DNA from: Escherichia coli
GTDB taxonomy: Bacteria > Pseudomonadota > Gammaproteobacteria > Enterobacterales > Enterobacteriaceae
DNA length: 64,000 nucleotides
Assembly: GCF_013315695.1 (NCBI RefSeq)
Contig: NZ_CP054353.1
Strand: one strand, 5' to 3'
How positions within the stretch are numbered: the stretch's first letter is position 1; each line of letters starts with the position of its first letter. The position numbers were made by a program. Below are positions 26,101 to 29,100 of this stretch, one piece after another.

Positions 26101-29100
26101 TTTCGCAATCGCGAAGATGCAGAAAATGAATCAGGCTTACCGCAAGACGTTCTGGATAAGCTCAGTACCAGGATAGATCTCGATAACACCGTCTTAAATG
26201 CATTAACGGCAATCATGGCCTCGTCCCGGGATCGCCAGTTGACCGCCGTCAGAACGGCCATTAGTCGCTTTATGCCAGGGTTCAGCAACTTACGCGTCAG
26301 GCGTAAACCTCGCCTGCATATGTCGATTGATAAAAATGGCCAGACACTGAATGTGCTGCAATTATCGCAGGGTGAAAAATCACTGATGGCGTTAGTCGGC
26401 GATATTGCTCGCCGCCTGGCAATGATGAACCCGATGTTAGAAAACCCGCTAAACGGCGAGGGAATTGTATTAATTGATGAAGTGGACATGCACCTGCATC
26501 CAACATGGCAGCGTACAATCATCCAGCGTCTGACGACAACATTCCCACATTGCCAGTTTGTCTTAACAACCCACTCTCCTTTAGTGATCAGTGATTGCAA
26601 AGATGTGCTGGTTTATTCTCTGGATGATGGCGAATTAACGCAGCTCCCGTCTCTGTATGGGCAAGATGCGAATACTGTGCTTTTGAATGTGATGGATACG
26701 GATATTCGCAATGCGACAGTGGCAGAAAAACTTAACGATCTTTTGGATCTGATTCAGAAAAACGACTTTATCAACGCTAACGCTCTTCTGAATACGCTAA
26801 GCCTGGAACTTCCTGAAAACCATCTTGAACTGGTGAAAGCCAGAATGCTTCTGCGCAAACAGGAAATTAAACATGCGCGAAATAACTAAAGGGCAACCGC
26901 CGGCTAGTTTGCAACAGTGGGTGAGAGCAAAACCACGGGATAAAAATGCCAATCAGTGGTTTCAGGAACTTTATGCGCAAAAAAAATGGGATATCGTTGG
27001 CGATCTCAGCCAGCAGTGCGCTCAGGAACAATTTTATCTCTGTGCTTATTGCTGCGATCGCGTGACAGGTACAAACCGCGATACCGTTAATGAACATGTC
27101 GAAGCCAGGGATTTAGCTCCTGCTCGCAGTCTGGAATTCACGAATATCGTTGCAAGCTGCAAAACAAAAGGCCAGTGTGACGACTCGCATAAGAACCAGC
27201 CATTGCTGTTAACGCCGCTTATGCCGGAATGTGAAACCGAGTTTATCTTCAAGATCAGTGGTCGAATTGAAGGGACGACGCCGAGAGCTATCGATGCGAT
27301 TAAGGTACTCAACCTTGGCGATAGTGAACGTAATAATCGGGCATTAATTGAAAAACGTAAGCAGCTTTCCGACAACCTTCTGTGGGCTAATGGCATTGAC
27401 CCTTCAGAGGGGCTTGAGGATGACGATCTGCTGCAAGTGGTTATCGACGAATTACTCACCCCCGTCGACGGTTATCTGGCACCTTTCGCTCCCGTGGTGG
27501 CGAATATTCTAAAAAACTGGATGACCGCATGACATAACGGACAACGGGGCCAGATGGCCCCGTCGTGTGGTGTATGCGCTACAGTTCGTTGAGCGTGTAC
27601 TGGAAGCGGCAGGTGGAATCAATGGGCTGGCGGCTGCTGGTATCGACACGCACCACCATGTCATGCAGTCGCTTGTCAGTAATGGGATACGGGTTGGGTG
27701 TGACCGTCACTTGCGAACTGTCACAGCCGGAGGTGGAGAAGGTGATCATCTGCGCCACAAAGCGGCAGTATGCGCCTCGATCGTCCATCACGCTGCCGTC
27801 ACAGAGCTTGCCGCTTTCCATCAAAAAGGTGGGCAGCGTTTTCTCAATCGTTCCGCCCGTCGATGACAATGACAGCACTTTAGAATGGGCAACATAATCT
27901 TCACTCCACGAAATATCATAAGTGGCGACGGGGACAGGGCATGATGAGTTGTGAACTTTGGGGCCGGTATAGGGACCAATACCATCTATCGAAGAGACAT
28001 TGCTGTCAGTATACGTCGAAATCAGCCACGGGCAACCGTGCACCGGACCGTCATAGTACACACCGAGAGGGGCATTATAACAATCCCAATTAGATTTGTT
28101 CGACTGCGCATCATACGCTTCAAGACCAACACACGTAGATTTTGAAGTCGTATTGAACGACTCCATTTTCAGCGTCGGAGCAGTAGAACTCCCTGTCCAG
28201 GACACCAAATCTAAATTCTCGGTTTGAAGCATTATACTGTGTTGTTTATAAACACCAAACTCAACACCGTCAGGAGTCAGTATCTCAAGATAGTAGTGTA
28301 TTTGTGTGAGATAGCCGGAATAGGCTAATGGGGTTATCAGGGTGGCGATTTTTGTGGCCGCCTGTGCCCCCGAACACCCTCCCCCCAATAAAAATATACA
28401 AACTAACGAGCGTAGTATTTTCATCTTAAATGTACTCAAATGTCGCGGTTAAGGAAGCGGTAAACTCACCCATCGTCACTTCCCGCCCGCTTTTCGCCTG
28501 GAGCCAGGCATTAAAATTCAGATTGTTATTGCCGTTACTCAGCACGAAAGTCGCCCCGCTGGTGTTGTTGATTGGCACCGCCGTTCCGTCGTTTTTTTCC
28601 ATGCCAATCCCGACGCCCTGCGCCGCCGAGGAGGCATCCAGCGCCAGAAAACCGGGCTGTTCACTGTCTTCCGTACCGGTCAGCGTCACCCGGACTTCAT
28701 ACTCGGCTGGCCCTTTACAATCTTTCAGCTGAAACACCACCGGCACCCGCGCCGACTGCCCGGTCACCATCAGGTCTTTACGACTAACGGTGGGGAAATG
28801 CACCTCCGCCAGCGACTCGCCCTGAACCACCAGCGTGCAGGATTTACTGAGTAAATTGCCGTAGAAATGCAGATTGTCTGCCGCCTGCACGTGGGGCATC
28901 AGCAGCACCGCCGCCAGTGCAGCCGCGCGGTGAGATATCCGTTTTAGATTCATTGGTAATCCACCTGTAATGTTGCGTAGGCAGAAAAGGTTCCGTCGCT
29001 GAGCGCTGCATCATTGGCTTTCACCGGTACGGCTTGCAGCGTTGGCGGAGTTGACGGGTCAATTTTCAACGGTGTTCCCAGCTTAAACGGCTGGCCGTTT

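What the first reader, a model, noticed from the sequence alone, without database searches (positions are those of the whole stretch)
26873..26889. 17-bp overlap between ATPase stop and HNH start implies translational coupling
The HNH ATG (26873) lies inside the last codons of the ATPase gene, with AGGA 7 nt upstream embedded in ATPase coding sequence. Overlap of this kind usually enforces fixed stoichiometry, consistent with the two proteins acting as a complex.
Basis: seen in the sequence. Interest (0 to 1): 0.35.

Follow-up and report, generated by a model that had tools for sequence, protein, structure and literature searches.

The report
Overlapping gene junction of Septu defence operon
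The 17-base overlap is real and is the normal, evolutionarily conserved joint between the two genes (ptuA ATPase, ptuB HNH nuclease) of an already characterised E. coli anti-phage system called Septu; it plausibly links production of the two subunits but that coupling is untested and the complex is 2:1 to 3:1, not 1:1.

Summary
Observation confirmed. ptuA (25531-26889) and ptuB (26873-27532) overlap by 17 nt, and AGGA(A) lies 7-8 nt before the ptuB ATG. RefSeq annotates the same boundaries.

The pair is a standalone Septu defence system inserted between smrB and yfcO. It is 99.0% / 98.6% identical to the published Septu Ec-B88. That system blocks T5-like, T4 and T6 phages, and infection triggers cleavage of tRNA-Tyr.

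The overlap is not chance. In 79 of 80 species-level loci (PtuB 42-99% identical), ptuA overlaps ptuB by 4-56 nt, mostly 14 or 17. All but one keep the same frame relation. The GGA(G) core is kept at the nucleotide level across four different PtuA amino acids (65/76 observed, about 25 expected).

ptuB uses GTG/TTG in 68% of loci, while ptuA uses ATG in 95%.

No conserved RNA hairpin masks the site.

Solved homologues show that PtuA's C-terminal domain, encoded right at this junction, clamps PtuB at 2:1 (6:2 in Septu). So "a complex" is right; "fixed stoichiometry" in the 1:1 sense is not.

Coupling is plausible but undemonstrated. Published work finds that coupling weakens as overlaps grow from -4 to -25 nt.

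Verdict: an ordinary feature of a known system, with a modest new comparative detail.

The parts
25470..25499 (+). Sigma-70-like promoter candidate upstream of ptuA (CTGACA, 18-nt spacer, TAAGAT)
   Evidence: This is the only + strand promoter-like site in 25300-27800 and none lies inside ptuA. It is a consensus match only; the number of matches is not above shuffled sequence. It lies inside the fragment from which the published clone was expressed with its native promoter.
25531..26889 (+). ptuA: Septu ABC/SMC-like ATPase, 452 aa, Walker A K43 and Walker B D316
   Evidence: PADLOC PtuA 4e-168. Pfam AAA_21, AAA_23 and AAA_15. PDB relatives are retron Ec83/Ec78 PtuA and Septu PtuA 8EE4. 99.0% identical to Septu Ec-B88 PtuA over the 399 residues available. 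Most family members start at the codon equivalent to the second ATG, 25534.
26848..26871 (+). Codons for the last conserved PtuA motif, L-L-R-K-Q-E-I-K; this is the end of the C-terminal domain that binds PtuB in homologues, and it carries the ptuB Shine-Dalgarno
   Evidence: The motif LLRK(Q/K/E/L)EL(R/K) is conserved in 76 loci. Papers assign the PtuA C-terminal extension to PtuB binding.
26861..26865 (+). Shine-Dalgarno of ptuB (AGGAA) inside ptuA coding sequence
   Evidence: G at -11 is kept in 65/76 loci against 24.8 expected from each gene's own Q/K/E codon use. It is kept across CAG, AAG, GAG, CTG and TTG codons. The spacing is fixed, with no indels in the alignment.
26873..26875 (+). 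ptuB start codon (ATG here; GTG or TTG in 68% of relatives)
26873..26889 (+). 17-nt overlap: a non-conserved PtuA tail (HARNN, stop) read in one frame, and the conserved PtuB N-terminus (MREITK) in the other
   Evidence: The position of the ptuA stop floats (overlaps of 8, 14, 17, 23, 26 and 56 nt), while the ptuB N-terminus is conserved.
26873..27532 (+). ptuB: Septu HNH nuclease, 219 aa, catalytic H75 and N91
   Evidence: PADLOC PtuB 4e-95. NCBIfam PtuB and TIGR02646 match but below their cutoffs. A profile of the family matches solved PtuB chains 9e8z_E, 8ee7_C and 9n69_F. 98.6% identical to Ec-B88 PtuB.
27544..27563 (.). GC-rich hairpin (ACGGGGCC-AGAT-GGCCCCGT) between the convergent genes ptuB and yfcO; possible terminator
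   Evidence: Read directly from the sequence. Not flagged by the terminator scan because it has no T-run. Function not tested.

Best explanation
This is the internal junction of a two-gene Septu anti-phage operon, ptuA followed by ptuB, transcribed as one mRNA from a promoter upstream of ptuA. The ribosome-binding site of ptuB lies inside the last conserved codons of ptuA. Those codons encode the end of the PtuA C-terminal domain that clamps PtuB in homologues.

Ribosomes finishing ptuA terminate 14-17 nt downstream of the ptuB start, so they sit on top of it. The most likely mechanism is that part of ptuB translation comes from these terminating ribosomes re-initiating at the nearby SD and start codon (termination-reinitiation). 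The rest would come from ordinary SD-driven initiation.

The result would be that PtuB is made on the same mRNA, at the same place and time as PtuA, and at a lower rate. The lower rate would come from the long overlap and, in most relatives, from a GTG or TTG start. That matches a complex with one PtuB per PtuA dimer.

Shown: gene identities, the overlap, its conservation, nucleotide-level selection on the SD, the absence of a masking RNA structure, and complex formation and ratios in homologues. Inferred: the single transcript, the re-initiation, and any ratio-setting role.
For: Identity of the system:
- PADLOC PtuA 4e-168 and PtuB 4e-95.
- 99.0% and 98.6% identity to the experimentally characterised Septu Ec-B88, which was cloned as the equivalent of window 25235-27832 with its native promoter and native overlap.

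Conservation of the overlap:
- 79 of 80 species-level loci overlap: 4 nt (1 locus), 8 nt (13), 14 nt (22), 17 nt (the largest class), 23 nt (3), 26 nt (8), 56 nt (1). All but one keep the same frame relation.
- Distant standalone ATPase+HNH pairs also overlap: Bacillus 14, Bacteroides 17, Ketogulonicigenium 14, Burkholderia 4, Fulvitalea 4. Retron-linked pairs are separated by only 2-5 nt.

Translation signals:
- The SD is under nucleotide-level selection: G at -11 in 65/76 loci against 24.8 expected; none of 200,000 simulated draws reached the observed count.
- The ptuB SD is stronger than the ptuA SD in the same operons (median -5.9 against -4.0 kcal/mol, p=5e-5). ptuB starts are GTG 36, ATG 24, TTG 14, while ptuA starts are ATG 70, GTG 4 (Fisher p=4e-16).
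- No + strand promoter-like site lies inside ptuA.

The complex:
- A pair of PtuA C-terminal extensions sandwiches one PtuB. Reported ratios are 4:2:1, 2:1 and 6:2.

General background:
- Overlapping pairs are enriched for subunits of heteromeric complexes, and coupling by termination-reinitiation has been shown in E. coli for short overlaps.
Against: - No experiment addresses coupling for this pair.
- A 17-nt overlap lies outside the -8 to +10 window that Huber et al. treat as predictive of re-initiation.
- The ptuB initiation region is accessible in the window: opening energy 5.7 against 11.1 +/- 3.7 kcal/mol for internal control sites. No conserved hairpin sequesters it. A free 30S subunit could therefore initiate there without any coupling.
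- The position of the ptuA stop is not conserved (8-56 nt), so the length of the overlap itself is not under selection.
- The 80 loci are related sequences, so part of the conservation could be inheritance rather than selection.
Confidence: 0.55

Rival explanations
1. Independent initiation, passive overlap. ptuB is translated by ordinary SD-driven de novo initiation. The overlap is only a by-product of operon compaction: the ptuA frame runs on until it meets a stop created by chance in the A-rich Lys/Ile codons of the ptuB N-terminus. There is no functional coupling.
For: - The SD is conserved and selected and is stronger than that of ptuA. That is what an independently initiating gene needs.
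- The initiation region is open in the window and there is no masking structure.
- The ptuA stop position varies from 8 to 56 nt, and the PtuA tail beyond the ptuB start is not conserved.
- Long overlaps couple poorly in synthetic constructs.
Against: - Overlap or near-abutment is kept in every PtuAB pair examined across phyla. No case had a gap above 5 nt, although such gaps would evolve easily.
- Weak GTG/TTG starts in 68% of loci are unusual for a gene that relies only on de novo initiation.
- Terminating ribosomes must physically occupy the ptuB start region.
Confidence: 0.3
2. Occlusion, or negative coupling. Because the ptuB ribosome-binding site lies within the last 30 nt of ptuA, ribosomes elongating on ptuA block it. 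The overlap therefore serves mainly to hold PtuB synthesis below that of PtuA, not to promote it.
For: - The geometry: SD at -12 to -8, start 14-17 nt before the ptuA stop.
- The complex needs less PtuB than PtuA (2:1 to 3:1).
- Weak start codons point in the same direction.
- RBS occlusion by upstream translation is a described mechanism, named in the title and abstract of PMC13285730.
Against: No direct evidence. Occlusion and re-initiation are not exclusive and would be hard to separate. The ptuA SD is weak (median -4.0 kcal/mol), which suggests modest ribosome traffic.
Confidence: 0.1
3. Mis-called start. The real ptuB start is a downstream in-frame codon (TTG at Leu13 or GTG at Val17), and there is no overlap at all.
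For: In-frame TTG and GTG codons exist shortly downstream.
Against: - Residues 1-12 are conserved (I4, K6 and P10 invariant).
- A start codon is present at the same aligned position in all 76 in-register junctions tabulated.
- Profiles and the solved Ec83 PtuB align from the N-terminus.
- An SD sits at fixed spacing from this start.
- The published mutant numbering H75/N91 uses this start.
Confidence: 0.02

Closest known systems
Septu Ec-B88 of E. coli JBBDAGI-19-0041 (PtuA WP_000981116.1, PtuB WP_016243072.1; Nat Commun 2026, PMC13096335)
   Same: Same chromosomal locus and upstream sequence, and the same gene lengths (452 and 219 aa). PtuA is 99.0% identical (395 of the 399 residues available) and PtuB 98.6% (216/219). 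The catalytic residues K43, D316, H75 and N91 are the same. The paper reports defence against T5-like phages, T4 and T6, cleavage of the tRNA-Tyr variable loop on infection, and loss of immunity when either active site is mutated.
   Different: A handful of substitutions: PtuA D19E, L70P, T220A, I228L; PtuB N168S, V189A, V198I. In the passages I read, the paper does not discuss the gene overlap or translational coupling.
Septu of E. coli ATCC 25922 (PDB 8EE4, 8EE7; Li et al. 2024)
   Same: A standalone PtuA ATPase plus PtuB HNH. PtuA matches at 1e-32 and the PtuB family profile matches 8ee7_C at 8.5e-7. It assembles as a 6:2 PtuA:PtuB complex (as cited in PMC12640716).
   Different: A distant subtype with low sequence identity and a 243-aa PtuB. 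It is reported to cleave DNA rather than tRNA-Tyr. I did not examine its gene junction.
Retron Ec78/Eco7 and Ec83/Eco4 effector modules (type I-A retrons, 'type II Septu')
   Same: Homologous PtuA (up to 4e-62 to 9e8z_C) and PtuB. The PtuA C-terminal domain clamps PtuB at 2:1. Eco7 also targets tRNA-Tyr.
   Different: Those systems have a reverse transcriptase and an ncRNA/msDNA that restrain PtuAB, and their PtuA carries an N-terminal extension of about 65-100 aa. Here there is no RT and no ncRNA, and the NCBIfam equivalog cutoffs are not reached. Their ptuA-ptuB junctions are gaps of 2-5 nt rather than overlaps.
Translationally coupled overlapping gene pairs (termination-reinitiation; Huber et al. 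2019 and 2023; review PMC12548453)
   Same: A co-directional pair that encodes subunits of one complex. The downstream SD and start lie inside the upstream gene, and the upstream stop is close to the downstream start.
   Different: The canonical and experimentally validated spacings are -4, -1 and -8 nt. This family is centred on -14 and -17 nt, a range where one synthetic study saw reduced coupling. Coupling has not been measured here.

Membership tests
Septu (standalone PtuA + PtuB) | [quoted passage not shown] | tested here: met
   PADLOC PtuA 4e-168 over the full length. Pfam AAA_21, AAA_23 and AAA_15 above their cutoffs. K43 in GNNGAGKT and D316 in VLIDEVD are present.
Septu (standalone PtuA + PtuB) | PtuB: HNH nuclease with the H-N-H motif | tested here: met
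   PADLOC PtuB 4e-95 over the full length. H75, N91 and H106 are invariant in 24 homologues. The family profile matches solved PtuB chains. Pfam gives no hit, and TIGR02646 scores 42.3, below its cutoff of 52.15.
Septu (standalone PtuA + PtuB) | Two adjacent co-directional genes, ptuA first | tested here: met
Septu (standalone PtuA + PtuB) | PtuA C-terminal domain that binds PtuB | tested here: inconclusive
   The sequence alignment to retron I-A PtuA runs to query residue 449 and chain residue 540 of 550, so it covers the region the papers call the PtuB-binding CTD/CTE. Binding itself was not tested, and no complex was modelled.
Septu (standalone PtuA + PtuB) | Confers anti-phage defence | not testable with these tools
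   Published for the 99.0% / 98.6% identical allele Ec-B88. Not tested for this exact allele.
Type I-A retron (Ec78/Eco7-like) effector module | Adjacent reverse transcriptase gene and retron ncRNA | tested here: not met
   smrB ends 85 nt before ptuA and yfcO follows ptuB, so there is no RT ORF. No Rfam family matches in 24500-28500 at E<=1.
Type I-A retron (Ec78/Eco7-like) effector module | NCBIfam equivalog scores for retron Ec78 PtuA and PtuB | tested here: not met
   PtuA 350.6 against a cutoff of 500; PtuB 93.9 against a cutoff of 150.
Translationally coupled gene pair (termination-reinitiation) | Upstream stop close to the downstream start, on one strand, with an SD inside the upstream gene | tested here: met
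   17-nt overlap; AGGAA at -12 to -8. Conserved in 79/80 loci, with the SD selected at the nucleotide level.
Translationally coupled gene pair (termination-reinitiation) | Spacing within the experimentally supported range (-8 to +10 nt, per PMC10666635) | tested here: not met
   -17 nt here. The family distribution is 4 nt (1 locus), 8 (13), 14 (22), 17 (the largest class), 23 (3), 26 (8), 56 (1). For the range.
Translationally coupled gene pair (termination-reinitiation) | Downstream translation depends on upstream translation | not testable with these tools
   This needs reporter fusions with premature stops, or ribosome profiling.
Translationally coupled gene pair (structure-unmasking type) | Downstream RBS sequestered in an RNA structure that upstream ribosomes melt | tested here: not met
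   Window fold z = -0.09, with the SD in a loop. RNAalifold predicts 0 pairs on 52 junctions. Two candidate hairpins show no covariation above shuffles. The initiation region is slightly more open than internal sites.

The most novel reading that the evidence does not exclude
The unusually long but conserved overlap (-14/-17 nt), the selected internal SD and the predominance of weak GTG/TTG starts would together form a built-in ratio-setting device. Inefficient re-initiation by ribosomes finishing ptuA would make roughly one PtuB per two to three PtuA. It would do so next to the freshly made PtuA C-terminal clamp, favouring assembly on the same mRNA and preventing free or excess nuclease. This would make Septu a natural example of sub-equimolar stoichiometry encoded by junction geometry.
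Probability: 0.2. Interest if true: 0.4.

Novelty: new member of a known kind. Interest (0 to 1): 0.2.

Why it matters
It matters little on its own. The system is a known Septu defence operon, nearly identical to a published one, and overlapping starts and stops are routine in bacterial operons.

The comparative result does have practical value for anyone who re-engineers or heterologously expresses PtuAB. It covers the overlap, the SD embedded in the codons of the PtuB-binding helix, and the ptuB-specific weak start codons, all conserved across phyla. Separating the genes, or recoding the 3' end of ptuA, may change the PtuA:PtuB ratio and hence toxicity or defence.

It also offers a clean natural test case for how overlaps longer than the canonical 4 nt behave in translational coupling.

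Tried and rejected
1. A conserved hairpin around the SD (G-CGY-AA / loop ACAGGAG / UU-RCG-C), and the hairpin in the E. coli minimum-energy fold that pairs UGCGCA with UGCGCG across the start codon. RNAalifold predicts no pairs on 52 junctions. Paired fraction and covariation are not convincingly above shuffled or slid controls. The complementarity is a by-product of conserved, partly palindromic Arg/Leu codons. Rejected.

2. A structure-unmasking type of obligate coupling. The window fold is unremarkable (z = -0.09) and the initiation region is open. Rejected.

3. A downstream alternative start for ptuB, which would remove the overlap. Rejected because the N-terminus is conserved.

4. A retron-linked system. 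There is no RT ORF and no Rfam hit, and the NCBIfam retron equivalog cutoffs are not met. Rejected.

5. An internal promoter for ptuB. No + strand promoter-like site lies within ptuA. This is a weak negative, because the scan uses consensus matching only.

6. A direct phmmer search of PtuB against the PDB found nothing. A family profile was needed to reach solved PtuBs.

7. Li et al. 2024 (PMC12318543) could not be read in the library. Its 6:2 stoichiometry is therefore cited second-hand from PMC12640716.

8. Several distant 'AAA ATPase + hypothetical protein' plasmid pairs (Deinococcus, Spirosoma, Methylocystis, Ruegeria) were not counted as Septu, because the partner is not annotated as HNH and I did not verify it.
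Full report
**What is in the sequence**

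The window is E. coli chromosome. On the + strand lie smrB (24894-25445), then a 452-aa ORF (25531-26889), then a 219-aa ORF (26873-27532). These are followed by the convergent yfcO fimbrial gene (27579-28424, - strand).

The second ORF's ATG (26873) lies 17 nt before the end of the first ORF's TAA (26887-26889). AGGA is at 26861-26864, which is 8 nt before the ATG by strict count, or 7 nt if read as AGGAA. RefSeq annotates identical boundaries in other genomes.

**What the genes are**

- PADLOC assigns the proteins to PtuA (4e-168) and PtuB (4e-95) of the Septu anti-phage system.
- Pfam sees the ABC/SMC-type ATPase domains AAA_21, AAA_23 and AAA_15 in PtuA and nothing in PtuB.
- The NCBIfam retron-Ec78 PtuA and PtuB models match, but below their equivalog cutoffs.
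- PtuA has solved relatives: retron Ec83 PtuA (4e-62), retron I-A/Ec78 PtuA, and Septu PtuA 8EE4 (1e-32).
- PtuB reaches solved PtuB chains only through a family profile (9e8z_E 1e-8, 8ee7_C 8.5e-7).
- There is no reverse transcriptase ORF and no Rfam hit nearby, so this is a standalone Septu.

The pair is present in 183 of 5,426 complete E. coli genomes. All matches are chromosomal, and in all 20 listed top hits the pair lies between smrB and yfcO.

**It is an allele of a characterised system**

Nat Commun 2026 (PMC13096335) describes 'Septu Ec-B88' from E. coli JBBDAGI-19-0041. It was cloned with 300-bp flanks and its native promoter.

- The supplementary sequences show PtuA (452 aa) 99.0% identical to the window protein over the 399 residues available. 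PtuB (219 aa) is 98.6% identical. The cloned fragment corresponds to window 25235-27832.
- The paper's mutants PtuA K43A and D316A and PtuB H75A and N91A fall on the same residues here.
- The paper reports defence against T5-like phages, T4 and T6, an abortive-infection-like phenotype, and infection-triggered cleavage of the tRNA-Tyr variable loop.

**Is the overlap more than chance?**

I fetched 80 loci, one per species, encoding PtuB relatives at 42-99% identity. They come from Enterobacterales, Pseudomonas, Aeromonas, Neisseria, Psychrobacter, cyanobacteria and others.

- In 79 of them ptuA overlaps ptuB: by 4 nt (1 locus), 8 (13), 14 (22), 17 (the largest class), 23 (3), 26 (8) or 56 nt (1). 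All but one have the same frame relation. The one exception, Arthrospira, looks frameshifted.
- The junctions align without gaps.
- PtuA ends with a conserved motif, L-L-R-K-(Q/K/E/L)-E-L-(R/K). It then has a non-conserved tail of 2-8 residues, rarely more, that runs into the conserved PtuB N-terminus M-R-K-I-x-K.
- What is conserved, therefore, is the placement of the ptuB start just before the end of ptuA. The exact length of the overlap is not conserved.

More distant pairs annotated as ATPase plus HNH also overlap: Bacillus mycoides 14 nt, Bacteroides thetaiotaomicron 17, Ketogulonicigenium 14, Burkholderia glumae 4, Fulvitalea 4. Retron-linked ptuA-ptuB pairs have gaps of only 2-5 nt.

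**Translation signals**

- The codon before the conserved Glu ends in G in 65 of 76 loci, whether it encodes Gln, Lys, Glu or Leu. This maintains the GGA(G) core.
- Each gene's own Gln/Lys/Glu codon usage predicts 24.8 such cases. None of 200,000 simulated draws reached 65. The neighbouring Lys codon shows no such bias (AAA 41, AAG 32).
- The exceptions are mostly cyanobacterial (CAA).
- ptuB's SD is stronger than ptuA's in the same operons (median -5.9 against -4.0 kcal/mol, p=5e-5).
- ptuB starts with GTG (36) or TTG (14) more often than ATG (24), whereas ptuA starts with ATG in 70 of 74 (Fisher p=4e-16).
- The PtuA residue that overlaps the start codon's first base is highly variable (H, R, S, L, I, G, C, N, Y). 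PtuA coding therefore does not dictate the choice of start codon.
- In the window itself the start is ATG and the SD is modest (AGGA, -4.3 kcal/mol).

**RNA structure**

- The window junction folds no better than shuffled sequence (z = -0.09), and its SD lies in a loop.
- RNAalifold finds no consensus pairs in 52 junctions.
- Two candidate hairpins that I proposed from the sequence show no covariation beyond controls.
- Opening the ptuB initiation region costs 5.7 kcal/mol in the window, against 11.1 +/- 3.7 for internal control sites. Family-wide it is only slightly easier to open than controls (median 9.66 against 9.96, p=0.008).
- Coupling by unmasking a sequestered RBS is therefore not supported.

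**What homologue structures say**

In retron Ec78/Eco7, a pair of C-terminal extensions from a PtuA dimer sandwiches one PtuB in a nine-helix bundle.

- Reported complexes are PtuA:PtuB:RT 4:2:1 or 4:2:2 (PMC12819146), 4:1, and isolated PtuAB at 2:1 (PMC12640716).
- E. coli Septu is cited as 6:2.
- Deleting the PtuA C-terminus abolishes both immunity and toxicity.
- The window PtuA aligns with these proteins to within a few residues of its C-terminus.

The ptuB SD is therefore embedded in codons for the very helix that holds PtuB, and the complex is PtuA-rich rather than equimolar.

**Interpretation**

'Translational coupling' is a reasonable inference, and the conservation shown here strengthens it. 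It remains unproven, for these reasons:

- The searched literature contains nothing on ptuA-ptuB coupling.
- The spacings enriched and experimentally validated for termination-reinitiation are -4, -1 and -8 nt.
- One synthetic study found that coupling declines from -4 to -25 nt overlap.

My best reading (confidence about 0.55) is partial coupling. Ribosomes terminating 14-17 nt past the ptuB start re-initiate at the selected SD and start, and some independent initiation adds to this. PtuB would then be co-produced with PtuA, at a lower rate, on the same mRNA.

The rivals are:

- purely independent initiation with a passive overlap (0.3);
- occlusion that mainly lowers PtuB output (0.1);
- a mis-called start (0.02).

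**Verdict**

This is a real and conserved but ordinary operon junction in a known, recently characterised defence system. The comparative details are a small new observation: the overlap is conserved across phyla, the SD is selected at the nucleotide level, and weak starts are specific to ptuB. Their main use is for anyone engineering PtuAB expression.

Noticed in passing
window 25446-27307 (absent) and 27308-27959 (retained) compared with L003 (E. coli UTI89): UTI89-type genomes lack ptuA and the first two-thirds of ptuB, with 48 unrelated nt in their place. They keep a 225-nt 3' remnant of ptuB next to yfcO at 94.6% identity. This implies the Septu pair was lost by deletion in those lineages rather than inserted into this one.
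   Followed up: partly
76 species-level loci (L005-L083), ptuB start position: ptuB uses GTG or TTG in 68% of loci, while ptuA in the same operons uses ATG in 95% (Fisher p=4e-16). The ptuB SD is stronger than the ptuA SD.
   Followed up: yes
L089 (Ketogulonicigenium plasmid) 1401-3345; L091 (Fulvitalea plasmid) 1599-3568: In two unrelated plasmids the ATPase+HNH pair sits inside a type I restriction-modification operon, between the S-subunit and R-subunit genes.
   Followed up: no
L084, L087, L090 (retron Ec78-type loci on plasmids): Retron-linked ptuA-ptuB pairs have small gaps (+2, +5, +2 nt) instead of overlaps, while the RT gene overlaps ptuA by 4-8 nt.
   Followed up: partly
L019 (Zobellella maritima) around 2960-3004: A 12-nt insertion after the conserved LLRKQELR codons moves the old SD away from the start. 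A new GGAAG motif lies upstream of the start, and the junction has become a canonical ATGA 4-nt overlap.
   Followed up: no
L072 (Arthrospira sp. PCC 9108) around 2969-3143: The ptuB homologue aligns only from residue 73 in one frame. It is probably a frameshifted pseudogene, and it is the single locus without a clean overlap.
   Followed up: no
window 25531-25536: ptuA begins ATGATG. In most related loci the start aligns with the second ATG (25534), so the true E. coli start could be either. The published numbering (K43, D316) uses the first.
   Followed up: partly
window 27544-27563: A GC-rich 8-bp hairpin (ACGGGGCC-AGAT-GGCCCCGT) lies between the convergent genes ptuB and yfcO and has no T-run. 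It may be a bidirectional terminator. It also lies within the stretch (27308-27959) that is retained in genomes that lost Septu.
   Followed up: no
window 27506-27535, - strand: A promoter-like match (ATGTCA, 18-nt spacer, TAGAAT) on the - strand at the 3' end of ptuB points antisense into ptuB. It is a consensus match only, and the number of such matches is not above shuffled expectation.
   Followed up: no
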